DNA of 64,000 nt from positions 156,736,001-156,800,000 of the forward strand of contig OX597814.1 of assembly GCA_951406725.2 (NCBI GenBank). The letters are read 5' to 3'. Position numbers and translations under genes: made by a program. Under the pieces are notes generated by a model that searched no databases, had not been told where the DNA came from, and saw only the letters and a list, made by a program, of their open reading frames with translations. This document shows, piece by piece, positions 641 to 63,960 of the stretch; positions within the stretch are counted from its first letter, which is position 1, and the number at the start of each line of letters is the position of its first letter. The stretch comes from Octopus vulgaris. Taxonomy: Eukaryota.

Positions 641-764
641 TGACAGACAGGCTGGAAGTAAGAAATAAACATATACTTAATAATACACATTCAGAATATA
701 AATGGTTAATAAATAAAAAGAAAAATTAATATGATAAAAAAAATTTCGGAGGAAACAAACATAC

Positions 765-7305: not shown

Positions 7306-8175
7306 TGTGTGGTGAATAAACTGCTGTCTAAATTACGCAAAAATGAAAATAACACTGACATCGCATTTTTTAACATATATTTACCAAAATTACTTGAAAT
7401 ACTTAAGAGTAAACTTATTTAATAAAATCCCCATTGACTTCAACCTTGGCTTCCAGACGACTTTGGAATCTCCTGCAACTCTTCTGGTTGGGCTCCTTGT
7501 TCAAGATGGTGAATGCTGCCGTAATCCTTGCCCTCACTTCATCTTTGCTGTTACAAGGAGTTTTGTTGGTCTTTTGCTCAACTGCGCCCCACACATGATA
7601 ATCAAGGGGGTTGCAGTCTGGGGAGTTAGATGGCCAGATGTTAGGGGTGATGTCGTCACAGAAACTGCCTGACACCTGTGACTAGGTTCTCCAACTTGTG
7701 TGGCATGGTGCAGAGTCCTGTTGTTAGATATAGCGTCTTCCAGCAGCCATCCTCTTGACCCAGGGCAGCACTACCTCCTCTGGGTACTTGATGTAGGCTT
7801 CTGTGATGAATCTGAGACTGTGTGGGAAGATGAATGGAGACATAACATCGCCATCACTAGTGATCCAAACACCATGATGTTGACTGGGTGTTTGATTTTT
7901 ATCACTCTCGGTACATGTCCTCAAATTGCACTGTTCTCAGACTGACACCCAAACACTCAGAAATATTCATACTGGAGCTTCCAGTGCAAATGCCAAGCAG
8001 TACAACATGTCATTCCCAAATTTCTGACAGAGTAAATTGCATCATGGTGCTGGTTTTGTCACAGATGCCCAACCAACTCTACTATACTTTGTAACCAACA
8101 AAATCAAAAACAAACAATGTGTATTCATGAAATTAAAAATATAAAATGGCAACAATTTACCCATTGCATGCTGTA
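7305..8175 (-). mobile_element. Decayed DD37D (maT/Bmmar1-like) Tc1/mariner-superfamily transposon; partial transposase pseudogene
   Basis: Minus frame reads QQDSAPCHT...WPSNSPDCNPLDYHVW with exactly 37 codons between the 2nd and 3rd Asp; in-frame stops; degenerate TIRs near 7305 and 8150-8175. Confidence 0.88.
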
Positions 8176-20739: not shown

Positions 20740-21118
20740 CTCTTTTACTTGTTTCAAGTCATTTGATTGTGGCCATGCTGAAACTCCACCTTTAGTTGAA
20801 CAATCCTGACCCCAGGACTTATTCTTTGTAAGCCTAGTACTTATTCTATCAGTCTCTCTTGCCAAACTGCTAAGTTACAGGGATATAAACACACCAACAT
20901 CAGTTATCAAGTGATGGTGGAGGGACAAACACAGACACACAATTACATACACACATATATACAACAGGCTTCTTACAGTTTCCAGCTACCAAATCCACTC
21001 ACAACGCTTTGGTTGGGCCAAGGCTATAGAAGAAGACACTTGCCCAAGGTGCCACGCAGTGGGACTGAATCCAGAACTATGTGGTTGGGAAGCAAGCTTC
21101 TTACCGCACAGCCACACA
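20740..21118 (-). mobile_element. SINE family A
   Basis: Near full-length match to 54362-54768. Confidence 0.88.
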
Positions 21119-24096: not shown

Positions 24097-25126
24097 GTGT
24101 AGCAACATCAAAGGAAGATTAACCGGGAAGATAGCTTTCGTGTGTGGCAGATGCACATGGGCAATAAGCTCCACAGATGCTCAGGAAACAGATTCCATCA
24201 CATGCCAGGGGAAGAAACTAGAAGTAGTTGATAGCTTCCACTACCTAGGTGACCAAGTCTGTAGTGGGAGTGGATGCTCAGAGAGTGTTACCACTAAATA
24301 AGAATAACCTGGCAAAGTTCAGAAAGCTTCTACCCCTACTGGTGACAAAGGGTCTCTCACTCAGAGTGAAAGGTAGATTGTACGATGCATGTGTGCAAAT
24401 TGCCATGCTTCACTGTAGTGAAACATGGGGCCACAACTGCTGAAGACATGCATAAGCTTGAAAGAAATGAAGTTAGCATGATCTGCTAGATGAGTAATGT
24501 CAGCATGCACACATGACAGAGTGTAAGCGCCCCAAGAGAAATGTTGGATATAAGAAGCAGCGGATATGGTGTACAAGATAGACGTCTGCATTGGTATGCT
24601 CATGTACTACAGATGGATGAGGAGAGCTGTGTGAAGAAGTGCCATTCCCAAAGAGTTGAAGGAATCCAGAGTAGAGGGAGACCCAGGAAGACATGGAATG
24701 AGGTGGTGAAGCATGACCTTCGAATGTTGGGCCTCACAGAGGCAATAACAAAAGACGAGTCCTCTGGCGATATGCTGTGACTGAGAAGACCCGGCAAATA
24801 AAGTTAGTTCACAGCTGTAACCTACACCAGTGTCACATAACCAGCCCACTCAAAAGTACCTTGGATCGTAGGGCAACATGCTGTGCTTGAGGAGACCTAC
24901 TGAGTCAAATCAAAATCAAATAGAAATTGTAGTTGTGATCCCCATGCCAGTGGCATGTAAAAAGCACCCACAACACTCTCAGAGTAGTTAGCATTAGAAA
25001 GGGCATCCAGCTGTAGAAACACTGCCAGATCAGATTGGAACCTGGTGCAGCCTCCTGGCTTTCCTGACCCCAGTCGAACCGTCCAACCCATGCCAGTATG
25101 GAAAACAGACATTAAATGATGATGAT
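24097..25126 (+). mobile_element. 5'-truncated, frameshifted RTE LINE (end of PHD insert, RT C-terminus, unexpanded 3' UTR, GAT tail)
   Basis: Frames read CSNIKGRLTGKIAFVCGRC...LEVVDSFHYLGD, KGLSLRVKGRLYDACV, RLHWYAHVLQMDEE...GRPRKTW. Confidence 0.92.
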
Positions 25127-25143
25127 ATATATATAAATACACT

Positions 25144-32062: not shown

Positions 32063-32812
32063 CAGGAGGATTGAACTCAGTACTGGGTTTAAGGCCAAGT
32101 TGACCTAAGTAAAATCTGAACTCAAGGTATAGACCTGGAACAAATACATCAATGCATTCTAGCTAATATTCTCATAACTTCAACACAGACACGTACACAC
32201 TCACAAACATATACACATGAACATGTGCTAGGTTTTAAGAAGGTCAGTCTTGATAGCGGAAATGATATCTAGCTGTAGAAACCATGCTAACAAGGAAATG
32301 CATAAGCAAGGTGCAGCCCTCCAACGCAGATAGGTAGATAGTAATAACTCCAAATATGAAGTGACCAAGACCAGGATGAACCACCCAACGCATGCCAACA
32401 TGGAAAGCAGGCGTAAAATGACGCCAATGATAAGGATGATGCATATGTTTGCATGCACACACACATGCTTGTGTAGATGTATGCATTTACATAAATACAG
32501 AGGTAGGTGAAGTCTTCTGACTTACCAGTACTTGTGGAACTGTCCAACCCATGCCAGCATGGGGAAACAGACATTAAATGATGAAGATGATGATGATGAA
32601 AACCACACACAATTGTGCAAATGCACAAAGACACACATACATGCACAAACAAGTGCAAGTGTGACTGTGTGGTAAGAAGTTTGCTTCCCAACCACATGGT
32701 TCCAGGTTCGCTTCTACTGTGTGGCACCTTGGGCAAGTGTCTTCTACTATAGCCTCAGGCCGACCAATGCCTTGTGAGTGGATTTGGTAGACGGAAACTG
32801 AAAGAAGCCCAC

Positions 32813-37319: not shown

Positions 37320-37543
37320 TCTTTTACCTGTTCCAGTCATTTTGACTGCGTCCATGCTGGAGCATCACCTTTAGTCAAGCAAATCAACTCCAGGACTCAT
37401 TCTCTGTAAGCCTAGTACTTATTCTATTGGTCACTTTTGCCGAACCGCTAAGTTACGGGGACGTAAACACACCAGCATTGGTTGTCAAGCGGTATTGGGG
37501 GAACGAACATAGACACACAAACATATACACATATATATATATA
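37320..37543 (-). mobile_element. SINE family A, 3' half (5' half displaced to 47775-47961)
   Basis: Homology stops at the central (TA)n and resumes 10.2 kb later. Confidence 0.9.
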
Positions 37544-37617
37544 TATGATGAATAAAAGGGGACTGAGGGCCGAGCCCTGGTGTACCTCTACTTCAACCCG
37601 AAATTCTTCACTATATT

Positions 37618-38710
37618 CCCTTTTATTCATCATAGTCCTCCAGGCAATAACAGAGGAATTCAAAACAGGTTGCCCTGGGAGCTCCTCTATGCTGATGACC
37701 TGGCCCTCATAGCAGAATCACTACCGGAACTAAAAAAGAAATTTCGGGTGTGGAAACAAGGGTTAGAATCTAAGGGCCTTAGAGTAAATGTAGCGAAGAC
37801 CAAAGTTATAGTATGCAGAAAGGCGAACTCAGCACACACCCCATCGGGCAGGTGGCCCTGCTCGAGCTGTAAGAAAGGTGTAGGTAGAAACTCCATAAGA
37901 TGCACCCAGTGTAAGCTATGGACGCATAAGAGGTGCAGCAACATCAAAGGGAAATTAACTGATAAGATAGCTTTCATGTGCGGCAGATGCATAGGGACAA
38001 TAGACACCACAGATACTAAAAAAACAGATTCCATCACACTCCAGGGGGAGAAACTAGAAGTAGTTGATAGTTTCCGCTACCTGGTTGACCAAGTTAGTAG
38101 TGGGGGTGGATGCACAGAGAGTGTCACCATTAGAATACGAATAGCCTGGGTAAAGTTTAGAAAGCTCCTACCCATACTGGCGACAAAGGGTCTCTCACTC
38201 AGAGTGAAAGGTAGATTGTATGATGCATGTGTGCGAACCGCCATGCTTCACGGCAGTGAATCATGGGCCGTGACTGCAGAGGACATGCGTAGACTTGAAA
38301 GAAATGAAGCTAGCATGATCCGCTGGATGTGTAATGTCAGTGTAAATGCACGACAGAGTGTAAGCACCCTGAGAGAAATGCTAGGCATAAGAAGCATCAG
38401 ATGCGGTGTGCAAGAGCGACGCTTGCGATGGTATGGTCATGTACTGCGGATGGATGAGGAGAGATGTGTGAAGAAGTGCCACTCCCGAACAGTTGAAGGA
38501 ATCAGGGGGAGAGGTAGACCCAGGAAGACATGGGATGAGGTAGTCAAGCATGACCTCATAGCGTTGGGCCTCACTGAGGCAATGGCGAAGGACCGAGATC
38601 TCTGGAGATGTGCTGTGACTACTAAGACCCGAGATGCTTCCGGCACCAGTTCCGCATACCCCCTGCCCATACAAAGTACCCTGGATCCCGGAACATCTCG
38701 CTGTGCTTGA
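37618..38710 (+). pseudogene. RTE reverse transcriptase, C-terminal half with inserted C4HC3 finger; one 1-bp frameshift near 37673
   Basis: LLFIIVLQAITEEFKTGC/PWELLYADDLAL...GLRVNVAKTKV...LEVVDSFRYL...RLRWYGHVLRM...GRPRKTW; open to TGA at 38710. Confidence 0.93.
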
Positions 38711-41700
38711 GGAGACCTGTTGAGTCAAGTGCATATACATATACATGAACATCGATACATGAACATCAAATCAAATATCAATGGAAACAGTTGTTGATTC
38801 CTGTGCCGGGGACACATAAAAAGCACCATCCGAACGTGGCCGTTGCCAGTGCAGCCTCCCCTGGCTCCTGTGCCAGTGGCACATAAAAAGCACCATCCGA
38901 CCGTGACCGATGCCAACCCCGCCTCGAATGGCTTCTGTGCCGGTGGCACATGAACATCGAACCAAATATCAATGGAAACAGTAGTTGTGATACCTGTGCC
39001 GGTGACACATAAAAAGCACCATCCGAACGTGGCCGTTGCCAGTGCAGCCTCCACTGGCTTCTGTGCCAGTGACACATAAAAAGCACCAACCGATCGTGGG
39101 ATCCCGGAACATCTCGCTGTGCTTGAGGAGACCTGTTGAGTCAAGTGCATGTCCATGTACATGAGAATCGAACCAAATATCAATGGAAACAGTTGTAGTT
39201 GTGATACCTGTGTCGGTGACACACCGCCTCGAATGTCTTCTGTGCCGGTGGCACACACCAACCGATCGTGGGATCCCGGAACATCTCACTGTGCTTGAGG
39301 AAACCTGGTGAGTCAAGTGCATGTACCGGAACATCTCGCTGTGCTTGAGGAGACCTGTTGAGTCAAGTGCATGTACATGAGATTCGAACCAAATATCAAT
39401 GGAAACAGTAGTAGTTGTGATACCTGTGCCGGTGACACATAAAAAGCACCATCCGAACGTGGCCGTTGCCAGTGCAGCCTCCACTGGCTTCTGTGCCGGT
39501 GGCACATAAAAAGCTCCATCCGAACGTGACCGATGCCAACCCTGCCAGCACCATCCGAACGTGGCCGTTGCCAGTGCAGCCTCCACTGGCTTCTGTGCCG
39601 GTGGCACATAAAGAGCACCAACCGATCGTGGGATCCCGGAACATCTCGCTGTGCTTGAGGAGACCTGTTGAGTCATGTACATGTACATGAGAAGCGAACC
39701 AAATATCAATGGAAACAGTTGTAGTTGTGATACCTGTGCCGGTGACACAACGCCTCGAATGGCTTCTGTGCCGGTGGCACACACCAACCGATCGTGGGAT
39801 CCCGGAACATCTCGCTGTGCTTGAGGAGACCTGGTGAGTCAAGTGCATGTACCGGAACATCTCGCTGTGCTTGAGGAGACCTGTTGAGTCAAGTGCATGT
39901 ACATGTACATGAGAATCGTACCAAATATCAATGGAAACAGTTGTAGTTGTGATACCTGTGCCGGTGACACACCGCCTCGAATGGCTTCTGTGCCGGTGGC
40001 ACACACCAACCGATCGTGGGATCCCGGAACATCTCACTCTGCTGGAGGAGACCTGGTGAGTCAAGTGCATGTACCGGAACATCTCGCTGTGCTTGAGGAG
40101 ACCTGTTGAGTCAAGTACATGTACATGAGAATCGAACCAAATATCAATGGAAACAGTAGTAGTTGTGATACCTGTGCCGGTGACACATAAGAAGCACCAT
40201 CCGAACGTGGCCGTTGCCAGTGCGGCCTCCACTGGCTTCTGTGCCAGTGACACATAAAAAGCACCAACCGATCGTGGGATCCCGGAACATCTCGCTGTGC
40301 TTGAGGAGACCTGTTGAGTCAAGTGCATGTCCATGTACATGAGAATCGAACCAAATATCAATGGAAACAGTTGTAGTTGTGATACCTGTGCCGGTGACAC
40401 AACGCCTCGAATGGCTTCTGTGCTGGTGGCACACACCAACCGATCGTGGGATCCCGGAACATCTCGCTGTGCTTGAGGAGACCTGGTGAGTCAAGAGCAT
40501 GTACCGGAACATCTCGCTGTGCTTGAGGAGACCTGTTGAGTCAAGTGCATGTACATGAGAATCGAACCAAATATCAATGGAAACAGTAGTAGTTGTGATA
40601 CCTGTGCCGGTGACACATAAAAAGCACCATCCGAACGTGGCCGTTGCCAGTGCAGCCTCCCCTGGCTCCTGTGCCGGTGGCACATAAAAAGCACCATCCG
40701 ACCGTGACCGATGCCAACCCCGCCTCGAATGGCTTCTGTGCCGGTGGCACATGAACATCGAACCAAATATCAATGGAAACAGTAGTTGTGATACCTGTGC
40801 CGGTGACACATAAAAGGCACCATCCGAACGTGGCCGTTGCCAGTGCAGCCTCCACTGGCTTCTGTGCCAGTGACACATAAAAAGCACCAACCGATCGTGG
40901 GATCCCGGAACATCTCGCTGTGCTTGAGGAGACCTGTTGAGTCAAGTGCATGTCCATGTACATGAGAATCGAACCAAATATCAATGGAAACAGTTGTAGT
41001 TGTGATACCTGTGTCGGTGACACACCGCCTCGAATGTCTTCTGTGCCGGTGGCACACACCAACCGATCGTGGGATCCCGGAACATCTCACTGTGCTTGAG
41101 GAAACCTGGTGAGTCAAGTGCATGTACCGGAACATCTCGCTGTGCTTGAGGAGACCTGTTGAGTCAAGTGCATGTACATGAGATTCGAACCAAATATCAA
41201 TGGAAACAGTAGTAGTTGTGATACCTGTGCCGGTGACACATAAAAAGCACCATCCGAACGTGGCCGTTGCCAGTGCAGCCTCCACTGGCTTCTGTGCCGG
41301 TGGCACATAAAAAGCTCCATCCGAACGTGACCGATGCCAACCCTGCCAGCACCATCCGAACGTGGCCGTTGCCAGTGCAGCCTCCACTGGCTTCTGTGCC
41401 GGTGGCACATAAAGAGCACCAACCGATCGTGGGATCCCGGAACATCTCGCTGTGCTTGAGGAGACCTGTTGAGTCATGTACATGTACATAAGAAGCGAAC
41501 CAAATATCAATGGAAACAGTTGTAGTTGTGATACCTGTGCCGGTGACACAACGCCTCGAATGGCTTCTGTGCCGGTGGCACACACCAACCGATCGTGGGA
41601 TCCCGGAACATCTCGCTGTGCTTGAGGAGACCTGGTGAGTCAAGTGCATGTACCGGAACATCTCGCTGTGCTTGAGGAGACCTGTTGAGTCAAGTGCATG

Positions 41701-44700
41701 TACATGTACATGAGAATCGTACCAAATATCAATGGAAACAGTTGTAGTTGTGATACCTGTGCCGGTGACACACCGCCTCGAATGGCTTCTGTGCCGGTGG
41801 CACACACCAACCGATCGTGGGATCCCGGAACATCTCACTCTGCTGGAGGAGACCTGGTGAGTCAAGTGCATGTACCGGAACATCTCGCTGTGCTTGAGGA
41901 GACCTGTTGAGTCAAGTGCATGTACATGAGAATCGAACCAAATATCAATGGAAACAGTAGTAGTTGTGATACCTGTGCCGGTGACACATAAGAAGCACCA
42001 TCCGAACGTGGCCGTTGCCAGTGCAGCCTCCACTGGCTTCTGTGCCAGTGACACATAAAAAGCACCAACCGATCGTGGGATCCCGGAACATCTCGCTGTG
42101 CTTGAGGAGACCTGTTGAATCAAGTGCATGTCCATGTACATGAGAATCGAACCAAATATCAATGGAAACAGTTGTAGTTGTGATACCTGTGTCGGTGACA
42201 CGCCGCCTCGAATGGCTTCTGTGCTGGTGGCACACACCAACCGATCGTGGGATCCCGGAACATCTCGCTGTACTTGAGGAGACCTAGTGAGTCAAGAGCA
42301 TGTACCAGAACATCTCGCTGTGCTTGAGGAGACCTGTTGAGTCAAGTGCATGTACATGAGAATCGAACCAAATATCAATGGAAACAGTAGTAGTTGTGAT
42401 ACCTGTGCCGGTGACACATAAAAAGCACCATCCGAACGTGGCCGTTGCCAGTGCAGCCTCCCCTGGCTCCTGTGCCGGTGGCACATAAAAAGCACCATCC
42501 GACCGTGACCGATGCCAACCCCGCCTCGAATGGCTTCTGTGCCGGTGGCACATGAACATCGAACCAAATATCAATGGAAACAGTAGTTGTGATACCTGTG
42601 CCGGTGACACATAAAAAGCACCATCCGAACGTGGCCGTTGCCAGTGCAGCCTCCACTGGCTTCTGTGCCAGTGACACATAAAAAGCACCAACCGATCGTG
42701 GGATCCCGGAACATCTCGCTGTGCTTGAGGAGACCTGTTGAGTCAAGTGCATGTCCATGTACATGAGAATCGAACCAAATATCAATGGAAACAGTTGTAG
42801 TTGTGATACCTGTGTCGGTGACACACCGCCTCGAATGTCTTCTGTGCCGGTGGCACACACCAACCGATCGTGGGATCCCGGAACATCTCACTGTGCTTGA
42901 GGAAACCTGGTGAGTCAAGTGCATGTACCGGAACATCTCGCTGTGCTTGAGGAGACCTGTTGAGTCAAGTGCATGTACATGAGATTCGAACCAAATATCA
43001 ATGGAAACAGTAGTAGTTGTGATACCTGTGCCGGTGACACATAAAAAGCACCATCCGAACGTGGCCGTTGCCAGTGCAGCCTCCACTGGCTTCTGTGCCG
43101 GTGGCACATAAAAAGCTCCATCCGAACGTGACCGATGCCAACCCTGCCAGCACCATCCGAACGTGGCCGTTGCCAGTGCAACCTCCACTGGCTTCTGTGC
43201 CGGTGGCACATAAAGTGCACCAACCGATCGTGGGATCCCGGAACATCTCGCTGTGCTTGAGGAGACCTGTTGAGTCATGTACATGTACATGAGAAGCGAA
43301 CCAAATATCAATGGAAACAGTTGTAGTTGTGATACCTGTGCCGGTGACACAACGCCTCGAATGGCTTCTGTGCCGGTGGCACACACCAACCGATCGTGGG
43401 ATCCCGGAACATCTCGCTGTGCTTGAGGAGACCTGGTGAGTCAAGTGCATGTATCGGAACATCTCGCTGTGCTTGAGGAGACCTGTTGAGTCAAGTGCAT
43501 GTACATGTACATGAGAATCGAACCAAATATCAATGGAAACAGTAGTAGTTGTGATACCTGTGCCGGTGACACATAAAAAGCACCATCCGAACGTGGCCGT
43601 TGCCAGTGCAGCCTCCCCTGGCTCCTGTGCCGGTGGCACATAAAAAGCACCATCCGACCGTGACCGATGCCAACCCCGCCTCGAATGGCTTCTGTGCCGG
43701 TGGCACATGAACATCGAACCAAATATCAATGGAAACAGTAGTTGTGATACCTGTGCCGGTGACACATAAAAAGCACCATCCGAACGTGGCCGTTGCCAGT
43801 GCAGCTTCCACTGGCTTCTGTGCCAGTGACACATAAAAAGCACCAACCGATCGTGGGATCCCGGAACATCTCGCTGTGCTTGAGGAGACCTGTTGAGTCA
43901 AGTGCATGTCCATGTACATGAGAATCGAACCAAATATCAATGGAAACAGTTGTAGTTGTGATACCTGTGTCGGTGACACACCGCCTCGAATGTCTTCTGT
44001 GCCGGTGGCACACACCAACCGATCGTGGGATCCCGGAACATCTCACTGTGCTTGAGGAAACCTGGTGAGTCAAGTGCATGTACCGGAACATCTCGCTGTG
44101 CTTGAGGAGACCTGTTGAGTCAAGTGCATGTACATGAGATTCGAACCAAATATCAATGGAAACAGTAGTAGTTGTGATACCTGTGCCGGTGACACATAAA
44201 AAGCACCATCCGAACGTGGCCGTTGCCAGTGCAGCCTCCACTGGCTTCTGTGCCGGTGGCACATAAAAAGCTCCATCCGAACGTGACCGATGCCAACCCT
44301 GCCAGCACCATCCGAACGTGGCCGTTGCCAGTGCAACCTCCACTGGCTTCTGTGCCGGTGGCACATAAAGAGCACCAACCGATCGTGGGATCCCGGAACA
44401 TCTCGCTGTGCTTGAGGAGACCTGTTGAGTCATGTACATGTACATGAGAAGCGAACCAAATATCAATGGAAACAGTTGTAGTTGTGATACCTGTGCCGGT
44501 GACACAACGCCTCGAATGGCTTCTGTGCCGGTGGCACACACCAACCGATCATGGGATCCCGGAACATCTCGCTGTGCTTGAGGAGACCTGGTGAGTCAAG
44601 TGCATGTATCGGAACATCTCGCTGTGCTTGAGGAGACCTGTTGAGTCAAGTGCATGTACATGTACATGAGAATCGAACCAAATATCAATGGAAACAGTAG

Positions 44701-47697
44701 TAGTTGTGATACCTGTGCCGGTGACACATAAAAAGCACCATCCGAACGTGGCCGTTGCCAGTGCAGCCTCCCCTGGCTCCTGTGCCGGTGGCACATAAAA
44801 AGCACCATCCGACCGTGACCGATGCCAACCCCGCCTCGAATGGCTTCTGTGCCGGTGGCACATGAACATCGAACCAAATATCAATGGAAACAGTAGTTGT
44901 GATACCTGTGCCGGTGACACATAAAAAGCACCATCCGAACGTGGCCGTTGCCAGTGCAGCCTCCACTGGCTTCTGTGCCAGTGACACATAAAAAGCACCA
45001 ACCGATCGTGGGATCCCGGAACATCTCGCTGTGCTTGAGGAGACCTGTTGAGTCAAGTGCATGTCCATGTACATGAGAATCGAACCAAATATCAATGGAA
45101 ACAGTTGTAGTTGTGATACCTGTGTCGGTGACACACCGCCTCTAATGTCTTCTGTGCCGGTGGCACACACCAACCGATCGTGGCATCCCGGAACATCTCA
45201 CTGTGCTTGAGGAAACCTGGTGAGTCAAGTGCATGTACATGAGATTCGAACCAAATATCAATGGAAACAGTAGTAGTTGTGATACCTGTGCCGGTGACAC
45301 ATAAAAAGCACCATCCGAACGTGGCCGTTGCCAGTGCAGCCTCCACTGGCTTCTGTGCCGGTGGCACATAAAAAGCTCCATCCGAACGTGACCGATGCCA
45401 ACCCTGCCAGCACCATCCGAACGTGGCCGTTGCCAGTGCAGCCTCCACTGGCTTCTGTGCCGGTGGCACATAAAGAGCACCAACCGATCGTGGGATCCCG
45501 GAACATCTCGCTGTGCTTGAGGAGACCTGTTGAGTCATGTACATGTACATGAGAAGCGAACCAAATATCAATGGAAACAGTTGTAGTTGTGATACCTGTG
45601 CCGGTGACACAACGCCTCGAATGGCTTCTGTGCCGGTTGCACACACCAACCGATCGTGGGATCCCGGAACATCTCGCTGTGCTTGAGGAGACCTGGTGAG
45701 TCAAGTGCATGTACCGGAACATCTCGCTGTGCTTGAGGAGACCTGTTGAGTCAAGTGCATGTACATGTACATGAGAATCGTACCAAATATCAATGGAAAC
45801 AGTTGTAGTTGTGATACCTGTGCCGGTGACACACCGCCTCGAATGGCTTCTGTGCCGGTGGCACACACCAACCGATCGTGGGATCCCGGAACATCTCACT
45901 CTGCTGGAGGAGACCTGGTGAGTCAAGTGCATGTACCGGAACATCTCGCTGTGCTTGAGGAGACCTGTTGAGTCAAGTGCATGTACATGAGAATCGAACC
46001 AAATATCAATGGAAACAGTAGTAGTTGTGATACCTGTGCCGGTGACACATAAGAAGCACCATCCGAACGTGGCCGTTGCCAGTGCAGCCTCCACTGGCTT
46101 CTGTGCCAGTGACACATAAAAAGCACCAACCGATCGTGGGATCCCGGAACATCTCGCTGTGCTTGAGGAGACCTGTTGAGTCAAGTGCATGTCCACGTAC
46201 ATGAGAATCGAACCAAATATCAATGGAAACAGTTGTAGTTGTGATACCTGTGTCGGTGACACACCGCCTCGAATGGCTTCTGTGCTGGTGGCACACACCA
46301 ACCGATCGTGGGATCCCGGAACATCTCGCTGTGCTTGAGGAGACCTGGTGAGTCAAGAGCATGTACCGGAACACCTCGCTGTGCTTGAGGAGACCTGTTG
46401 AGTCAAGTGCATGTACATGAGAATCGAACCAAATATCAATGGAAACAGTAGTAGTTGTGATACCTGTGCCGGTGACACATAAAAAGCACCATCCGAACGT
46501 GGCCGTTGCCAGTGCAGCCTCCCCTGGCTCCTGTGCCGGTGGCACATAAAAAGCACCATCCGACCGTGACCGATGCCAACCCCGCCTCGAATGGCTTCTG
46601 TGCCGGTGGCACATGAACATCGAACCAAATATCAATGGAAACAGTAGTTGTGATACCTGTGCCGGTGACACATAAAAAGCACCATCCAAACGTGGCCGTT
46701 GCCAGTGCAGCCTCCACTGGCTTCTGTGCCAGTGACACATAAAAAGCACCAACCGATCGTGGGATCCCGGAACATCTCGCTGTGCTTGAGGAGACCTGTT
46801 GAGTCAAGTGCATGTCCATGTACATGAGAATCGAACCAAATATCAATGGAAACAGTTGTAGTTGTGATACCTGTGTCGGTGACACACCGCCTCGAATGGC
46901 TTCTGTGCCGGTGGCACACACCAACCGATCGTGGGATCCCGGAACATCTCGCTGTGCTTGAGGAGACCTGGTGAGTCAAGTGCATGTACCAGAACATCTC
47001 GCTGTGCTTGAGGAGACCTGTTGAGTCAAGTGCACGTACATGAGAATCGAACCAAATATCAATGGAAACAGTAGTAGTTGTGATACCTGTGCCGGTGACA
47101 CATAAAAAGCACCATCCGAACGTGGCCGTTGCCAGTGCAGCCTCCACTGGCTTCTGTGCCGGTGGCACATAAAAAGCTCCATCCGAACGTGACCGATGCC
47201 AACCCCGCCAGCACCATCCGAACGTGGCCGTTGCCAGTGCAGCCTCCACTGGCTTCTGTGCCGGTGGCACATAAAGAGCACCAACCGATCGTGGGATCCC
47301 GGAACATCTCGCTGTGCTTGAGGAGACCTGTTGAGTCAAGTGCATGTACATGTACATGAGAATCGAACCAAATATCAATGGAAACAGTTGTAGTTGTGAT
47401 ACCTGTGCCGGTGACACACCGCCTCGAATGGCTTCTGTGCCGGTGGCACACACCAACCGATCGTGGGATCCCGGAACATCTCGCTGTGCTTGAGGAGACC
47501 TGTTGAGTCAAGTGCATGCATGTACATGTACATGAGAATCGTACCAAATATCAATGGAAACAGTTGTAGTTGTGATACCTGTGCCGGTGACACACCGCCT
47601 CGAATGGCTTCTGTGCCGGTGGCACACACCAACCGATCGTGGGATCCCGGAACATCTCGCTGTGCTGGAGGAGACCTGGTGAGTCAAGTGCATGTAC
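38683..47697. repeat. ~9-kb higher-order satellite built from RTE 3' UTR modules; HOR steps 1801, 1801, 1155, 1155, 1751 bp
   Basis: Equivalent ORF ends at 39261, 41062, 42863, 44018, 45173, 46924; the modules match the single-copy UTR at 24850-24970. Confidence 0.95.
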
Positions 47698-47774
47698 CCC
47701 TGGCTCCCCAGACCCCGGTCGAACCGTCCAACCCGTGCTAGCGCGGAAAACGGACGTTAAACGATGATGATGAT

Positions 47775-47961
47775 ATATATATATATATATATATATATAC
47801 GACGAGCTTCTTTCAGTTTCCATCTACCAAATCTACTCACAAGGCTTTGGTCGGTCCAAGGCTATAGTAGAAGACACTTGCCCAAGGTGCCACACAGTGG
47901 GGCTGAACCTGGAACCATGTGGTTGGTAAGCAAGCTACTTACCACACACCAACTCCTACGC
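47775..47961 (-). mobile_element. SINE family A, 5' half with tRNA-like head
   Basis: (TA)n-cgacgagcttctttcagtttcc...ctcctacgcc, colinear with 61050-61219. Confidence 0.9.
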
Positions 47962-47978
47962 CTTTGAGAATAAGTTAT

Positions 47979-50619: not shown

Positions 50620-51335
50620 AAATGCATGTGGCTTAGTGGTTAGAGTAGTTAGCTCACAACCATAAGGTCACAAGTTCGATTCCCAGCAGTGTGTTGTATC
50701 TTTGAGCAAGACACTTTACTTCACATTGCTCCAGTCCACTTAGCTGATAAAAGTGAGTTGTCCTAGTAATTCAAAGGGTCGGCTATGTTGCATTCTGTGA
50801 GGCAATGAATCTTCCTGAGAACTACATTAAGGCAGCAAGCTTGCAGAAATGTTAGCACGCCGGGTGAAATGTTTAGCGGTATTTCATCTGCTGTTACGTT
50901 CTGAGTTCAAATCCCACCGAGGTCGACTTTGCCTTTCATCCTTTCGGGTCGATAAATTAAGTACCAGTTACACCCTGGTTGGGTTCGATGTAATCAACTT
51001 AATCTGTTTGTCTGTCCTTGTTTGTTTCCTCTGTGTTTAGCCCCTTGTGGGTAGTAAAGAAATAGGTATTTCGTCTGTCTTTACGTTCTGAGTTCAAATT
51101 TCGCCATAGTCGACTTTGTCTTTCATCCTTCCGGGGTCGATAAATTAAGTACCAGTTACGCACTGGGGTTGATGTAATTGACTTAATTTGTTTGTCTGTC
51201 CTTGTTTGTCTCCTTGGTGTTTAGCCCCTTGTAGGTAGTAAAGAAATCTGTATGTGTTTGTGAAGTGCTCAGCTACTTGCACACTAACTTCATGAGCAGG
51301 CTGTTCTGTTGATCAAATCAACTGGAACACTTGCA
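50620..51335 (+). mobile_element. tRNA-derived SINE interrupted by a head-to-tail dimer of SINE family B (50830-51248)
   Basis: Outer element matches the 3' body of 15841-16204 on both sides of the insert; the inner unit repeats from ggtatttc at 50878 and 51065. Confidence 0.82.
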
Positions 51336-52642
51336 TTATCTCATGTATCCTTCTCCTCACCATTTTTTTGCAGATAATGAGATTCAAGATTTAGTAGCTA
51401 TTTTTAGCAAATGAAGTGAACATGTAGAGACTATCTTGTCGGTGAGTGGACAACAAAAAGGTTTGACTTCAGTGATTCCTTGAATCAACATTTGCTCTTT
51501 ACATTCCAAGTTTAAATCCTACTGAGATCAGTACAAGAGTCAATCAAGTACAAGAGTCAATCAAGTACAAGAGTCAATCAAGTACAAGAGTCAATGATAT
51601 TGACAAACAGCCTCTCATCAAAACTGCTGGCCTTGTGCTAAATCGGAAATCGTTATTTATAATAGTTGAAATCTAGAATAATCTGATTCTATTACACTAA
51701 GTACTAGCAGCTTAAACCACTTCATGAAGTAAGTATTAACCTAGTCTTTCCCTCCATTACTTCTTTGAAGAGTATAGTGATAATTAACAGGTGCAGGCAT
51801 GGCTGAATAGTTAAGAAGCTTGCTTTGCAACCATGTGGTTTTGGGTTCAGTTCCAATGTGAAGCACTTTGAGTGTCTTCTAATATAGCCCCAAACTTTAT
51901 GAGTGAATCTAGTAGGTGGAAACTGTGTGGAAATCTGTCGTAAATGTGTGTGTGTGTATCTGTGAAGGTGTGTATTCATGTGTGTCTATGCTTCTCCCCA
52001 CTCATTACTTGACAACTGTTTACATTCCTGTAACTTAATGATATGGCAAAAGGAATCTACAGAACAAGTAGCAGACTTCAAAAACAAAAATGTATTGGGG
52101 TTGATCTGTTCAACTAAAACCCTTCAAGGCAGTTCCCCAGCTTGGTTGCAGAAGTAAAAGATAAAGATAAAACCAAATAGTAATTTTTGCAACATTAGTC
52201 CATTGTTAACTATTAAACAGAAACCTGAAAACAGCCTTTCCTTCAGAAATAAATGCAGAATGAATTCAAAAGACCTATGCATATTTTTAAAACCCTTTTG
52301 ATAGCAACTCGCCTGAGGTTTACATTACAAAAACATCTGTTTTAAAGTGATATATATACATACACACACATATATACACACATATATGTATGTATGTTTG
52401 TGTATATGTATACAAGTGAACAAATGAAAGAAAATTGTACTCAACACATTTGGTAGGAGTTACAAGTGATATATGTATATATATATGATGATGATGATAT
52501 ATATGTATAGAGAGAGAGAGAGAGAGAGAGAGCAATAAGAAAATGGAGGGGATCAATAGGTGGTTCATCAACTTTTAGACATAATATGTCAACTTATTTA
52601 TTTATTTACTAAACTGACAATTACAAGAATATATACACATCT

Positions 52643-53262
52643 CCGTGTCGGTGGCACGTAAAAGCACCATCCGTTTGTGTCCGTTGCCAGCCTCGCCTGG
52701 CCCCTGTGCAGGTGACATGTAAAAGCACCATCCGTTCGTGGCCGTTTGCCAGCTCTGTCTGGACCCCGTGTCGGTGGCACGTAAAAGCACCATCCGTTCG
52801 TGTTCGTTGCCAGCCTCACCTGGCCCCCGTGCCGGTGACACGTAAAAGCACCATCCGTTCGTGGCCGTTTGCCAGCCTCGCCTGGCCCCCGTGCCAGTGA
52901 CACGTAAAAGCACCATCCATTTCGTGGCCGTTTGCCAGCTCTGTCTGGCCCCCGTGTTGGTGGCACGTAAAAGCACCATCCGTTCGTGTCCGTTGCCAGC
53001 CTCGCCTGGCCCCTGTGCCGGTGACACGTAAAAGCACCATCCGTTCGTGGCCGTTTGCCAGCTCTGTCTGGCACCTGTGCAGGTGGCACGTAAAAAGCAC
53101 CCACTACACTCACGGAGTGGTTGGTGTTAGGAAGGGCATTCAGCCATAGAAACACTGCCAGATCTGACTGGGCCTGATGAAGCCTTCCAGCTTCACAGAC
53201 CCCAGTTGAACCGTCCAACCCATGCTAGCATGGAAAACGGACACTCGATGATGATGATGATG
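52643..53262 (+). mobile_element. RTE 3' end with 8 tandem ~61-62-bp UTR units
   Basis: Eight gtaaaagcacc-containing units, then the standard terminal segment and GAT tail. Confidence 0.9.
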
Positions 53263-54017
53263 TATAATATATTATGCTTTACTTATAAGATAACAATATC
53301 AATATATAAAGATATCAGTAATTATTACAATATAACATACATGAATATAAATTGGGAAGGCACACACACTTTTCAGCCTTCTAAGAAGTTGTGTTCCAAT
53401 CAGTAATTAAATAATAAAGGAATAGCAGGCAAAACACCTAGCAGTATTTAGTTTGAGCACTTTATGTTCTGAGTTCAAATCTTGCAGCGGATAACCTTGC
53501 CTTCTATCATTCAGGAGTTCATGAAATACAATAGCACTGAAGTAGGAAGTGCAACTGGCCATAAAAATCTACCTAGAAAAACTCTGTCTGACCCATGCAT
53601 GTGGACAAATGTGGACATTACAACGACCATAATATAACATATTTTGAGATAATTTTTCATTTCTGAAAATACATGCAATTAAATTCATAAAATGTATGCA
53701 CTATTCATGTTACAACTATTATGTTACAGTTTTTATGTTCTAACGTTTTTCACACAGCTGCCTGTGTACTTTCATATATATATATATATATATGTACGTA
53801 TGTATATATAGTCTTTTATTCTTTTACTTGTTTCAGTCACTTGACTGCGGCTGTGCTGGAGCACTGCTTTTAGTCGAGCAAATCAACCCCAGGACTTATT
53901 CTATTGGTCTCTTGTGCCAAACTGCTAAGTTACAAGGTCATAAACACACCAGCATCAGTTGTCAAGTGATATTCAGGGGACAAACACAGATCCACACATA
54001 CACACACACACACACAC

Positions 54018-54859: not shown

Positions 54860-55406
54860 GTTGAGGCAAGTGAAATCAAATCAAATTCGATGACTGGCAT
54901 CCGTGCTAGCAGGGTGCAAAGAGCACCATATGAGTGTGATCATTGACAGAGCGGCTAACTGGCTTCAGTATCAGTGGCACTTGAAAGGCACCATTCGAGC
55001 ATGATCGTTACCAGCGTCGCCTTACTGGCACTCAAGCCCCGTGCTAGTAGTGTATTAAGAGCACCATCCGAGCATGATCGTTGCCAGAGCGGCTATCTGG
55101 TCTTCGTGCTGGTGGCACGTAAAAGATACCATTCGAGCGTGATCATTACCAGCATCGCCTTACTAGCACCTGTGCCGGTGGCATGTGTAAAAGATTCGAG
55201 CGAGGTCATTGCCAGTACTGCCTGACTGGCCCCGTGCCAGTGCCACATAAAAGCACCCACTACACTCTCGGAGTGGTTGGCATTAGGAAGAGCATCCAGC
55301 TGTAGAAACTCTGCCAGATCGAGATTGAATCTGGTTCACCAGCCCTCAGTCATTCGTCCAACCCATGCTAGCATAGAAAGCAGACGTTAAATGATGATGA
55401 TGATGA
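54860..55406 (+). mobile_element. RTE 3' UTR fragment with ~6 diverged units; a similar copy at 59133-59546
   Basis: Repeated gtgc.ggtggcac.taaaa.cacc motif, terminal segment and GAT tail. Confidence 0.85.
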
Positions 55407-58873: not shown

Positions 58874-60834
58874 TGGACAGTGTCTCAAAAGAAAGTTAAA
58901 AAGTGAGTTGACTATTTCTAAGGTCTTACATCTTTTGATATCAATCCTCTTGAGGCCACATCAAGTTCTACGATACAAACTTTACATTCAAAATTCTCAA
59001 AGTAAAAAACCTTCCATCAAAATTTTATGTTAATTTATGCCCAAACACCAGTTTATTAACAATACTTTATTTCAATGCTAAACTAGAGCCGAAAATATAT
59101 CTATAGATTCTAACAGCTTGGAGCGCTAACAGCTCCATCCAAGCGGGATCACTACCAGAGCAGCTGTCTGGCTTATAAAGAGCACCATTTGAATGTGATC
59201 ATTGTTAGCGTCGCCTCACTGGCACTTGTACCAGTGGCACATGAACAAAACATTTGAGCGAGGTCATTGCCAGTGCTGCTAGTCTGACTCCTGTGCAGTT
59301 GGCACATGAAAAACACCATTTTCGAGCATGGCCATTGCCAGTACCGCCAGACTGGCCCTCGTGCCGGTGGCACGTAAAAGCACCCACTACACTCTCAGAG
59401 TGGTTGGCATTAGGAAGGGCATCCAGCTGTAGAAACTCTGCCAGATCAGATTGGAGCCTGGCACAGCCATCTGGTTCGCCAGTCCTCAGTCAAATTGTCC
59501 AACCCATGCTAGCATGGAAAGCGGACGTTAAACGATGATGATGATGACATAAATAAAGGTATTTACAATATTGACTAATATCTATAGATATATTCAGACA
59601 AGGAAGTTTATAACATCACTGATGCCCCATCTCAACAAGGTACCATGTGGATGCCTGGGTCTTTCAGTATCTCAGCCTTGCAATCACTGCTGGGTTTTGG
59701 ACTACCTCAAAAATTTACCATTCTGTGTTATTTTCCCATCCTGATGTTATTAGGTGATACAGTGTTGGAAACATGAACCAGCTGTTAATTCAATACTGTA
59801 CTTGCTTTTAAATAGACACCAAATTATTTTGTTAATCAAAAGCAGTCGTAAACAAAACATGGAAAAATAGAAAAGAATACAGAGAATATATTTTACATGA
59901 AAATAAAGCTGTTATTTCATGAAATAATTAGTATTGATTATTGTCATGGTAAAATAATTACGGTCATGGCCAAAATAATAACGGACAGCTGGTTTAGTTT
60001 CAATACAATGTTTGTCATAATTATTGTCATCATTAACAGCCTCTACATATATATTTAAATGTACAAGTATTGACTGAACAGGTCAGTAGTAAATTCACAA
60101 GCTTGTTTAACTAGTGCAAATAAGTTTATTTGTCTATGTTGTAGTTTATTCACCACTTAGTGTTGATCAAGGTGTTCTAGGCATAACATCCCTTACTTTT
60201 GTAAATCCAGTGTGTCCACCCTATGTAAAAATTTTTAAATGACAAGGTGTGATTTGAGGGAGATTTGACAGCTATCTAAGCAGGTCAAACAAAAACATGG
60301 ACACTTCCTTGTTGGTTCCTCAAGCTTAGTACTGTGATCCACTGTTTTATCGACTTGCTTTGAGCAGGCTTCATTCACCAGACTGACACAACCGAGATGT
60401 TGCTCCAACTGATGTTCCAATCCTCTTATACTGGAAGCCTTTTGACTGAATGCTCTGTTTTCAATCAAAAGAAAGCCAGTGACATGAATTTAAATCATGA
60501 ATGTGAAAAGCTTGAACAGGTACTGAAAGGCATCGCTTCTGACACTAACAATTACACTAACAATTCCACTAATCAATTTCAAATAAAAAGATGAAAGGCA
60601 AAAATGATCTCAGCAGGATTTGGAATCAGAGTCCAGACAGATAGAACAAATACAAGAAATTAATTCTATGCAAAGCTCAAATGACTCAGCCCAACACTAC
60701 CTTTAGTGTTTGAGTGTGTGTGTGTGTGTGTGTGTGTGCGTATATATATACTAATATGTTCGTAACCCTTTACCATTTAAACCAGCTATGTCTGGCTCAA
60801 CTATTCTACATATTCATTCATTTTTTTTTCATTT

Positions 60835-61221: not shown

Positions 61222-63960
61222 ATCATCATCATCGTTTAACGTCCGCTTTCCGCGCTAGCACGGGTTGGACGGTTTGACCGGGTCTGGGAAGCCAGGGGCC
61301 GCACCAGGCTCCAGTCTGAATCTGGCAGAGTTTCTACGGCTGGATGCCCTTCCTAACGCCAACCACTCCGTGAGTGGATTGGGTGCTTTTTACGTGCCAC
61401 CTGCACAGGGGCCGGAGGGTCCGGCATCGTCACGATCGGTTCGAGCATTTTAACGTGTCAGCGGCACGGGGGCAACGAGGTCCGGGGTACTTTGGGGATC
61501 GGGGTACTTTGGGGATCCAGGGTACTTTGGGGATCCGGGGTACTTAGAATGGGTAGGGGGTATGTGGAATTGCTGCAGAAAGCAGCCCGGGTCTTTGTAG
61601 TCACAGCATTTATCGTCACTGAGTAACGTAATTAGGTAGAGGAAAGAAATACAGATATTCTAAGAGTTGAGTTGGGGAGGGGGGTCCAGTTGAGGCGGGT
61701 AATATAGGGGAGCAACCAGTGGGAAGGTTGGGGTAAGGAGGAACGATGGCAGGAAGGGTTGGTGTAGGTTCCTAAGAAATAAAAACGTAGGATATTACGA
61801 GGCGGGAGGGTACTAAAGGGGATGGTCGGAATGAGGCAGTGTCAGGAGGAAGCGTAAGATCGGTGGGCAGTTGATGAGCTATGGCGCTAGCAGGGCAGTT
61901 GATGAGCTATGGCGCTAGCAGCTTGTCTTTTCACAGTGAAAGCATATGAGGAGAAGGGGTAGTGGGGAGAGGAGGGAGTAGGGCGTACCCGGTGTAGATG
62001 AGTAAGGCGTATCCGGTGTAGATGGTGAGAACTGGGTATAATGGTATTGGTGGTGGCGGTGAGAACAGTGTTCACCGGTATTGGTGGTGGGGGTGAGAAC
62101 AATGTTCATCGGTATTGGTGGTGGGGTTGGGGGGGCGGGCGCACCGCCACTGGCGGAAAGATGGGAAGAGATGGGATTACGGCTTGAGGCAGCCTAATGG
62201 TTAAATTTTGTAGAGAGAGAGATAGGAAAGATAAATCAAGTTATGGCGAAGGCTTGAAAGTAGTCTAAAAAGGTTAAATTTTCGTAACAGTGTATGAATA
62301 AACGTAGTAACAACAAATAAAAAGAGTAAGATAAATTTTTAAGAACTTGCTGCGGGCATCGACCAGGAGTTGAAATTGAAGAAGAAAGTAAGTTGAATTG
62401 GCGGAAAGATGGGAAGAGATGGGATTACGGCTTGAGGCAGCCTAATGGTTAAATTTTGTAGAGAGAGAGATAGGAAAGATAAATCAAGTTATGGCGAAGG
62501 CTTGAAAGTAGTCTAAAAAGGTTAAATTTTCGTAACAGTGTATGAATAAACGTAGTAACAACAAATAAAAAGAGTAAGATAAATTTTTAAGAACTTGCTG
62601 CGGGCATCGACCAGGAGTTGAAATTGAAGAAGAAAGTAAGTTGAATTGGCGGAAAGATGGGAAGAGATGGGATTACGGCTTGAGGCAGCCTAATGGTTAA
62701 ATTTTGTAGAGAGAGAGATAGGAAAGATAAATCAAGTTATGGCGAAGGCTTGAAAGTAGTCTAAAAAGGTTAAATTTTCGTAACAGTGTATGAATAAACG
62801 TAGTAACAACAAATAAAAAGAGTAAGATAAATTTTTAAGAACTTGCTGCGGGCATCGACCAGGAGTTGAAATTGAAGAAGAAAGTAAGTTGAATTGGCGG
62901 AAAGATGGGAAGAGATGGGATTACGGCTTGAGGCAGCCTAATGGTTAAATTTTGTAGAGAGAGAGATAGGAAAGATAAATCAAGTTATGGCGAAGGCTTG
63001 AAAGTAGTCTAAAAAGGTTAAATTTTCGTAACAGTGTATGAATAAACGTAGTAACAACAAATAAAAAGAGTAAGATAAATTTTTAAGAACTTGCTGCGGG
63101 CATCGACCAGGAGTTGAAATTGAAGAAGAAAGTAAGTTGAATTGGCGGAAAGATGGGAAGAGATGGGATTACGGCTTGAGGCAGCCTAATGGTTAAATTT
63201 TGTAGAGAGAGAGATAGGAAAGATAAATCAAGTTATGGCGAAGGCTTGAAAGTAGTCTAAAAAGGTTAAATTTTCGTAACAGTGTATGAATAAACGTAGT
63301 AACAACAAATAAAAAGAGTAAGATAAATTTTTAAGAACTTGCTGCGGGCATCGACCAGGAGTTGAAATTGAAGAAGAAAGTAAGTTGAATTGGCGGAAAG
63401 ATGGGAAGAGATGGGATTACGGCTTGAGGCAGCCTAATGGTTAAATTTTGTAGAGAGAGAGATAGGAAAGATAAATCAAGTTATGGCGAAGGCTTGAAAG
63501 TAGTCTAAAAAGGTTAAATTTTCGTAACAGTGTATGAATAAACGTAGTAACAACAAATAAAAAGAGTAAGATAAATTTTTAAGAACTTGCTGCGGGCATC
63601 GACCAGGAGTTGAAATTGAAGAAGAAAGTAAGTTGAATTGGCGGAAAGATGGGAAGAGATGGGATTACGGCTTGAGGCAGCCTAATGGTTAAATTTTGTA
63701 GAGAGAGAGATAGGAAAGATAAATCAAGTTATGGCGAAGGCTTGAAAGTAGTCTAAAAAGGTTAAATTTTCGTAACAGTGTATGAATAAACGTAGTAACA
63801 ACAAATAAAAAGAGTAAGATAAATTTTTAAGAACTTGCTGCGGGCATCGACCAGGAGTTGAAATTGAAGAAGAAAGTAAGTTGAATTGGCGGAAAGATGG
63901 GAAGAGATGGGATTACGGCTTGAGGCAGCCTAATGGTTAAATTTTGTAGAGAGAGAGATA
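61222..63960 (-). mobile_element. Putative bipartite non-autonomous RTE: 248-bp array, C-rich leader, last ORF codons, 3' UTR and (GAT)n tail
   Basis: Minus strand near 61610 reads tgctgtgactacaaagacccg...ataccccct.cccat...aagtaccc.ggatccc, matching the ORF end at 38611-38690; (TA) on both flanks. RTE origin of the leader is inferred. Confidence 0.65.
62151..63960. repeat. Tandem array of a 248-bp unit, 7.3 copies, apparently identical
   Basis: tggcggaaag starts at 62151, 62399, 62647, 62895, 63143, 63391, 63639, 63887. Confidence 0.97.

What the first reader, a model, noticed from the sequence alone, without database searches (positions are those of the whole stretch)
38860..47640. The amplified UTR motif can fold as a compact H-type pseudoknot, giving a tandem pseudoknot array
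Seen: UGUGC-C-GGUG-GCACA-UAAAAAG-CACC allows stem 1 UGUGC/GCACA, a 1-nt loop, stem 2 GGUG/CACC and a 7-nt A-rich loop. This geometry resembles luteoviral frameshift pseudoknots (established fold). Stem 1 pairing survives in variants CGUGC/GCACG (53 kb, 59 kb), CAUGC/GCAUG (24.9 kb) and UGUGU/ACACA (array), although some changes could be plain CpG decay and many units carry mismatches. By eye there are about 18 motifs per 1.8-kb HOR, roughly half with the full A-rich linker. The conserved downstream segment ggttgg...ggca-t-ccagct-gtagaaactc-tgcc allows a second pseudoknot of similar design. Inference: the family uses multimerised RNA pseudoknots for RT binding, nuclease blocking or translation control.
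Basis: partly seen in the sequence, partly recalled or inferred. Interest (0 to 1): 0.75.

Follow-up and report, generated by a model that had tools for sequence, protein, structure and literature searches.

The report
Satellite grown inside a retrotransposon tail
An 8.9-kb repeat array fills the tail of one broken retrotransposon copy in what is likely an octopus genome; its unit comes from a family motif predicted to fold as a small RNA pseudoknot, but only 11 of 92 array copies keep both stems, so the array is likely passive satellite DNA rather than a working RNA.

Summary
The counts are right: 18 motifs per 1,801-bp higher-order repeat (HOR), 9 with the A-rich linker. The intact motif has perfect H-type pseudoknot geometry. 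The interpretation mostly fails for the array. Only 11 of 92 motifs keep both stems; 44 lack the linker; 30 of the 48 with a linker carry a stem-1 mismatch that is the minority letter family-wide. The 'compensatory' UGUGU/ACACA variant occurs only in linker-less units. The 'second pseudoknot' segment is deleted from this locus. The array sits in the 3' UTR of one 5'-truncated, 5'-inverted RTE-type LINE copy (closest named protein: Octopus bimaculoides, 74%). Its HORs are 99.3-99.6% identical, likely younger than the insertion, which points to DNA-level satellite expansion. What remains interesting is the family 3' UTR. Dispersed copies carry 1-8 tandem hairpin-plus-pseudoknot units and a downstream segment that other animals keep in RTE 5' UTRs and SINEs, in one case next to a twister-like ribozyme. 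Stem 2 is 92% paired but covariation is weak, and outer stem-1 changes fit CpG decay (p=0.67). No slippery site, no Rfam match in the array.

The parts
37544..37618 (-). Inverted 5' piece of the LINE copy; encodes the RT motif just upstream of the + strand ORF remnant (5' inversion, likely twin priming)
   Evidence: translation EYSEEFRVEVEVHQGSALSPLLFII
37619..38710 (+). 5'-truncated ORF remnant of an RTE-type LINE: end of RT, PHD-like insert, C-terminal region, stop codon
   Evidence: closest named protein Octopus bimaculoides RT 74%
38684..38800 (+). Single-copy start of the 3' UTR region (modules D and E) that was drawn into the repeat monomers
38767..47696 (+). Satellite-like array: 40 monomers, 92 motif copies, six HOR blocks starting at 38,767, 40,564, 42,365, 43,520, 44,675 and 46,426
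40564..42364 (+). One complete 1,801-bp HOR: 8 monomers, 18 motifs, 9 with linker, 2 with both stems intact
40670..40695 (+). Example of an intact motif (M1): stem 1 5 bp, loop 1 nt, stem 2 4 bp, 7-nt A-rich loop; predicted H-type pseudoknot
40646..40666 (+). Hairpin GCCAG/CUGGC with variable loop that precedes the motif in full units
47697..47774 (+). Remainder of the element's 3' end: terminal stem-loop region and (GAT)n tail, joined to the array across a deletion of about 85 nt
52640..53310 (+). Dispersed 3'-end copy with 8 tandem units of about 62 bp, followed by segment M2 and the tail
59398..59445 (+).
24100..25130 (+). Second ORF-bearing copy of the family with a single motif and an unexpanded 3' UTR; reference for the deletion

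Best explanation
The array is a repeat expansion inside the 3' UTR of one 5'-truncated, 5'-inverted RTE-type LINE copy, and it likely grew at the DNA level after insertion, carrying mostly broken copies of a family motif that is predicted to fold as a hairpin plus small pseudoknot in the active element's RNA. Shown: position between the stop codon and the (GAT)n tail; monomers built from the family's own 3' UTR modules with new deletion junctions; nested HORs; loss of segment M2. Inferred step 1: reverse transcription inserted a truncated copy into an (AT)n tract. Inferred step 2: slippage between the pre-existing 62-67-bp units and short microhomologies made rearranged monomers. Inferred step 3: unequal exchange multiplied an 8-monomer block. 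Inferred step 4 (about 45% likely by itself): in active elements the unit folds as hairpin plus pseudoknot and helps the element's own protein bind or protect its RNA, as the 3' UTR pseudoknot of vertebrate R2 does. In the array that role is likely lost.
For: 11 of 92 motifs keep both stems; 44 lack the linker, 19 of these by a clean loss of loop 3; 30 of 48 linker units have a C-A mismatch closing stem 1. In contigs of two DNA runs the stem-keeping G at 39,005 makes up 85% and 81% of summed depth, so the array amplified the minority letter. Five HOR comparisons give 99.3-99.6% identity, while the ORF differs from the family majority at 11 or more of 400 positions in run X4 (40 of 84 rows shown). 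The copy is truncated and inverted. M2 is deleted. In a nested folding model of one HOR, local stem-1 pair probability is at most 0.37. Precedent: satellites from retrotransposon 3' UTR tandem repeats (PMC7004042). For structure in the family unit: stem 2 91.9% paired, covariation score 0.178 vs 0.141, 4 of 500 shuffles; loop-1 base C15/A6/T5/G1 in 27 dispersed copies; upstream hairpin 102 of 110 cells paired over 16 different loops with two double changes.
Against: The age argument could fail if this copy came from a minor subfamily rather than having private mutations. The tool warns that related sequences can beat its shuffles without structure, and 7 of the 34 rows are array variants. The hairpin count is partly built in, because units were picked with at most one mismatch per arm. 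The intact motif's best nested fold is a 6-bp hairpin (-7.8 kcal/mol) that competes for one stem-2 G, and RNAalifold uses GGUG/CACC in a non-knotted helix for terminal units, with 0 of 24 pairs changed on both sides. Relatives in other animals have no M1 and short 3' UTRs (40 of 41 with a tail found end within 150 nt; 51 examined), so M1 is not needed for RTE transposition in general. Transcription of the array was not settled either way.
Confidence: 0.7

Rival explanations
1. The motif has no RNA function anywhere. It is a GC-rich palindrome in a minisatellite-prone 3' UTR; the second stem is chance, and copies look paired only because they descend from recent masters.
For: Outer stem-1 pair independent in 27 dispersed copies, p=0.67. 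Only 2 of 136 stem-2 cells change on both sides. The junction pair of stem 1 is broken in 8 of 27 dispersed copies. Folding z-scores are -0.85 and 0.21 for a dispersed copy and an array stretch. M1 is absent from 100 related loci.
Against: Perfect geometry arises in 0.4-2.5% of shuffles. Hairpin arms stay while loops change in length (5-11 nt) and sequence. The loop-1 base varies including non-CpG changes to A and G.
Confidence: 0.3
2. One reading: the array itself is a selected multimer of RNA pseudoknots used for RT binding, nuclease blocking or translation control.
For: 11 intact motifs, and 20 more with perfect stem 2 and a 4-bp stem 1. Dispersed elements do multimerise the unit up to 8 times. 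R2 precedent for a 3' UTR pseudoknot bound by the RT protein (PMC11601368).
Against: 81 of 92 motifs are broken or truncated; the array favours the minority stem-breaking letter; the host copy lacks its 5' end; no slippery site in 79 motifs; M2 is deleted.
Confidence: 0.06
3. The last unit plus M2 is the relic or a rearranged variant of a twister ribozyme captured from an RTE 5' UTR; the 'pseudoknot' would be a re-used piece of it.
For: In locus L041 a twister-P1 match (42.3 bits, E 2.8e-6, below the 67.2 cut-off) directly abuts M2 upstream of what reads like the start of an endonuclease ORF. The window shares an 8-mer and the flank of M2 with it. A relaxed twister-like pairing pattern fits 2 of 10 window copies and 1 of 2,000 shuffles of each. 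Twister ribozymes head the RTE element Perere-3 (PMC8501958).
Against: No twister match in the window at E up to 5. The strict pattern fits 0 of 10 copies. The relaxed pattern was written after seeing the sequence and missed its positive control L041. The array lacks the 3' strands needed and the loop motif.
Confidence: 0.1
4. The array is an assembly artefact.
For: No contig in the four runs spans the whole stretch laid; a 248-bp repeat with 100% identity lies at the window's end.
Against: HOR blocks differ by 0.4-0.7% and have different lengths with nested structure. Bins holding array-specific junctions are covered by contigs in both DNA runs, and array-type small indels at 39,148-39,190 are seen there.
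Confidence: 0.03

Closest known systems
Satellites derived from retrotransposon 3' UTR tandem repeats (Ogre elements in Lathyrus sativus; PMC7004042, passages read)
   Same: Short tandem units in the element's 3' UTR, expanded into a long array; that paper also reports HORs, in its other satellites.
   Different: Here a non-LTR (RTE-type) element in an animal; a 9-kb array still inside its parent copy; monomers are rearranged mosaics of a structured unit.
3' UTR pseudoknot-hinge-stem of vertebrate A-clade R2 (PMC11601368, passages read)
   Same: A pseudoknot in the 3' UTR of a non-LTR retrotransposon; a model for what the family motif may do.
   Different: R2's is single, within the last 65 nt, and proven by structure and compensatory mutation. 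M1 is about 175 nt from the 3' end, repeated 1-8 times and untested.
Polerovirus/luteovirid -1 frameshift pseudoknots such as BWYV (PMC5009743, passages read; stem sizes recalled)
   Same: Compact H-type geometry with short loop 1 and A-rich last loop.
   Different: No slippery site, not in a coding region, loop-1 base not conserved.
Bipartite RTE-derived elements and SINE bodies (Kojima 2018, PMC5786205, parts 1-4 of 5 read)
   Same: A piece found in RTE 5' UTRs is joined to an RTE 3' tail; M2 occurs this way in SINE-like loci L009, L010, L017, L019.
   Different: Here the piece sits in the 3' UTR of an ORF-bearing LINE family. The M2 words were not in the paper's text supplement; its figure alignments could not be seen.
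Twister ribozymes of RTE elements (Perere-3; PMC8501958, methods part and passages read)
   Same: M2 abuts a twister-like sequence in RTE-like locus L041.
   Different: No twister match in the window; 3' rather than 5' position.

Membership tests
Luteovirid -1 frameshift pseudoknot | Compact H-type geometry (5-bp and 3-4-bp stems, 1-2-nt loop 1, A-rich last loop) | tested here: met
   Met by sequence in 11 of 92 array motifs; folding itself not shown
Luteovirid -1 frameshift pseudoknot | Slippery heptamer a few nt upstream | tested here: not met
   0 of 79 motifs
Luteovirid -1 frameshift pseudoknot | Lies within a translated ORF | tested here: not met
   All array motifs follow the stop codon at 38,710
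Luteovirid -1 frameshift pseudoknot | Conserved loop-1 C forming a base triple (recalled) | tested here: not met
   C15/A6/T5/G1 in 27 dispersed copies
Twister ribozyme | Match to an Rfam twister model | tested here: not met
   None in the window at E up to 5; L041 matches at 42.3 bits
Twister ribozyme | P1-P2-P4 with two tertiary pairings and fixed loop lengths | tested here: inconclusive
   Strict 0 of 10, relaxed 2 of 10; pattern missed its control
Twister ribozyme | Self-cleavage | not testable with these tools
   Needs an in vitro assay
Hammerhead-bearing tandem repeats (retrozymes, recalled) | CUGANGA core in the repeat | tested here: not met
   0 on either strand of the array; no Rfam match
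RTE-clade LINE | Single ORF with APE-type endonuclease and RT | tested here: inconclusive
   The window copy is truncated; full-length relatives of about 1,050 aa carry PF03372 and PF00078
RTE-clade LINE | 3' microsatellite tail | tested here: met
   (GAT)n at 47,763-47,774 and in dispersed copies
RTE-clade LINE | RT phylogeny groups with reference RTE elements | not tested
   No reference set fetched; the label RTE rests on architecture and recall
Retrotransposon 3' UTR-derived satellite | Monomer also present as short arrays in dispersed element copies | tested here: met
   1-8 units in dispersed copies
Retrotransposon 3' UTR-derived satellite | Expanded, homogenised array | tested here: met
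   8.9 kb, HOR identity 99.3-99.6%
Retrotransposon 3' UTR-derived satellite | Free-standing long arrays elsewhere in the genome | not testable with these tools
   No genome is held for this window
R2-type RT-binding 3' UTR pseudoknot | Bound by the element's protein and required for insertion | not testable with these tools
   Needs binding and retrotransposition assays

The most novel reading that the evidence does not exclude
The octopus RTE family has rebuilt its 3' UTR from a captured 5' UTR module. It uses a variable-number string of hairpin-pseudoknot units, possibly descended from a twister ribozyme, plus a pan-animal structured segment (M2) as a multivalent signal for its own reverse transcriptase or as a nuclease block. 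That would help explain the family's very high abundance, and the same modules would seed new satellites such as this array.
Probability: 0.15. Interest if true: 0.65.

Novelty: new variant of a known kind. Interest (0 to 1): 0.3.

Why it matters
The array is a clear snapshot of a satellite being born inside a LINE 3' UTR in an animal, with parent copy, modules and nested repeats all visible; the precedent read here is from plant LTR elements. It also warns that repeat number is not evidence of RNA function, since the amplified copies are mostly the broken ones. If the family unit and M2 do fold, they give two short, testable RNA elements in an abundant element family, and M2 a handle on why RTE 5' UTR pieces recur in SINEs.

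Tried and rejected
Own-genome search: no genome held, so no genome-wide covariance model or R-scape test. Rfam on the whole window: 105 matches at E up to 5, none in the array. Exact M1 patterns: 0 in metagenomes, 0 in viral contigs, 1 bacterial match taken as chance and not examined. M2 pattern: 0 in viral contigs, 21 in genome contigs; L012 and L021 look like chance bacterial matches and were left out. Plasmids: no match. Model of M1 over 100 of 123 loci: best E 0.47. Expression: no RNA holder listed; the two runs guessed to be RNA cover the family motif, but contigs cannot show expression and they may hold DNA, so no conclusion is drawn. The whole-window pseudoknot scan was swamped by (AT)n tracts; its block shuffles gave 0-4 per window. 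M2 alignment A3 held one misplaced row (L115) and was redone as A4 without L115, L003 and the 3.5-kb window copy; M2 covariation is not significant (34 of 500 shuffles), and its second stem is missing in the L061-type SINE group. Twister pattern failed its control. Sigma-70 scan is irrelevant for an animal. Earlier-findings look-ups were empty. Literature searches listed no paper whose title or abstract start describes this motif or array; one search's 40 hits were unrelated by title. Supplements: Kojima's text file lacked the motif words; 4 of 8 files of PMC9115989 were searched without a hit, 4 were not searched and 2 more are too large; PMC13282606's file had none. Repbase/Dfam and the Okada-lab octopus SINE papers could not be consulted, so the element may already be catalogued.
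Full report
Setting. The window is AT-rich, microsatellite-rich animal DNA. An open frame ending at 38,710 has a weak RVT_1 match and a PHD-like insert. Its closest named relative is an Octopus bimaculoides reverse transcriptase at 74% identity, and full-length relatives are single ORFs of about 1,050 aa with endonuclease, RT and PHD domains. I call it RTE-type from this architecture, the (GAT)n tail and recall; no tree was built. The copy is 5'-truncated, and its first 75 bases are inverted and encode the RT motif that belongs upstream. It sits between (AT)n tracts.

The array. It runs from about 38,767 to 47,696, between the stop codon and the element's last 78 bases. It has 40 monomers built from the family's own 3' UTR modules, grouped into blocks of 1,797, 1,801, 1,155, 1,155, 1,751 and about 1,270 bp. 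Five block comparisons give 99.3-99.6% identity. The new junctions show short shared words (for example ACAT at the motif-to-E junction, read), as slippage would leave.

Checking the motif. Across the array there are 92 motifs and 48 have the linker. Of those 48, 11 keep both stems, 20 keep stem 2 but have a C-A mismatch closing stem 1, 9 have both stems damaged, and 8 have other stem-2 mismatches, one of these also with the stem-1 mismatch. Of the 44 without a linker, 19 lost exactly the 7-nt loop, which leaves nothing to span stem 1. All 8 UGUGU/ACACA-type units are linker-less. In contigs of two public DNA runs the stem-keeping G at 39,005 has 85% and 81% of summed depth, so the array multiplied the minority form. 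In a nested model of one HOR, local stem-1 pair probability never exceeds 0.37; this model cannot draw pseudoknots.

Is the family motif a real structure? For: perfect geometry appears in only 0.4-2.5% of 3,000 shuffles of a 431-nt UTR copy (post hoc). In 34 copies (27 dispersed, 7 array variants) stem 2 is 91.9% and stem 1 87.6% paired, with 4 of 500 shuffles reaching the covariation score. The loop-1 base varies (C15, A6, T5, G1 in 27), which fits an unpaired base better than the competing 6-bp hairpin. The GCCAG/CUGGC hairpin before the motif keeps 102 of 110 cells paired over 16 different loops, with two double changes, though the units were picked by similarity. Against: only 2 of 136 stem-2 cells change on both sides. 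The outer stem-1 pair is two CpG sites, and its changes are independent among dispersed copies (p=0.67). Whole-region folding is no better than shuffles. RNAalifold places GGUG/CACC in a non-knotted helix with no double changes. I put the chance that the knot forms and matters in active elements at about 45%.

The second segment (M2). It is not in the array (0 matches); about 85 nt holding it are deleted at the array's 3' end. It is in 13 window hits outside the array. A degenerate pattern found it in 21 stretches of genome contigs, mostly apparent animal contaminants. There it lies in SINE-like elements and, in L001/L022, upstream of an endonuclease ORF (Pfam E 0.004). Stem 1 is kept through G-U/A-U swaps. 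Stem 2 is kept in most groups but lost in one. Covariation is not significant. Relatives of the ORF in other animals have short 3' UTRs (40 of 41 with a tail found, of 51 examined) and no M1 (100 loci). So this family likely lengthened its 3' UTR with a piece that elsewhere belongs to RTE 5' UTRs, in line with the bipartite RTE elements of Kojima 2018 (PMC5786205, parts 1-4 of 5 read; figures not seen). In L041 a sub-threshold twister-P1 match abuts M2. A twister reading of the octopus unit was tried: strict 0 of 10 copies, relaxed 2 of 10, control missed. It stays a lead.

Age and reality. In run X4 the ORF letters of this copy differ from the family majority at 11 or more of 400 positions (40 of 84 rows shown), against 0.4-0.7% between HORs. 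The expansion is therefore likely later than the insertion, unless the copy came from a minor subfamily. Bins with array-specific junctions are covered in both DNA runs, at summed depths from 64 to about 31,000 against millions for the motif bins; the tool warns this is not a copy number.

Mechanism. Shown: position, modules, nesting, deletion, broken motifs. Inferred: insertion by target-primed reverse transcription with a 5' inversion; slippage among the 62-67-bp units; unequal exchange of an 8-monomer block. The closest precedent is satellites arising from 3' UTR tandem repeats of plant Ogre elements (PMC7004042, passages). For the motif in active elements the closest model is the R2 3' UTR pseudoknot bound by the element's protein (PMC11601368, passages). 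A luteovirid-type frameshift role fails three defining tests (PMC5009743, passages).

Novelty and verdict. Eight literature searches and the supplements I could search showed no description of this motif or array; repeat databases and several supplements were out of reach. PMC9115989 (passages) describes RTE-2_OV with a 3' UTR mostly of microsatellite, which I could not match to this element. PMC13282606 (part 1 of 3 and supplement search), PMC4758252, PMC10048060 and PMC10085705 (passages) and PMC8501958 (methods part, passages) gave context only. Verdict: observation partly confirmed, interpretation partly supported for the family and not for the array. New variant of a known kind; interest 0.3.

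Noticed in passing
window 37,544-37,634: 5' inversion with a duplicated stretch of about 16 nt at the inversion junction, a twin-priming-like signature in an RTE-type element.
   Followed up: partly
window 37,810-38,010 (ORF residues 95-146): PHD-like Cys-rich insert after the YADD motif, shared by many invertebrate and fish relatives.
   Followed up: partly
window 62,151-63,960: 248-bp tandem repeat, 7.3 copies at 100% identity, purine-rich; very recent expansion or assembly artefact.
   Followed up: no
window 54,901-55,070 and 59,150-59,195: Variant units in which the motif is rearranged into two successive hairpins; the GGUGC/GCACC helix is kept and the first hairpin resembles the element's 3'-terminal stem-loop.
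   Followed up: no
window 47,785-47,965 (-), 37,340-37,520, 20,900-21,100, 32,600-32,780, 50,878-51,247: Other abundant short repeats flank the insertion and recur in the window; likely tRNA-derived octopus SINEs (OK/OR families, names recalled).
   Followed up: no
L041:1050-1165: Twister-P1-like ribozyme directly followed by M2 in the 5' region of an RTE-like element; the twister's last strand overlaps M2's first stem, which could allow refolding after cleavage.
   Followed up: partly
L001-L011, L013-L020, L022-L026, L028-L042: Many prokaryotic genome and MAG records in genome contigs carry what look like animal or plant LINE/SINE sequences, i.e. eukaryotic contamination.
   Followed up: no
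L004 and L010, upstream of M2: Another short motif ending in an A-rich loop and stem precedes M2 in these SINE-like elements and shows paired changes between them.
   Followed up: no
window 13-663: 20-bp purine-rich minisatellite at the window's start.
   Followed up: no
window 7,440-7,960: GC-richer stretch that reads like a decayed transposase fragment on the minus strand (by eye, from recall).
   Followed up: no
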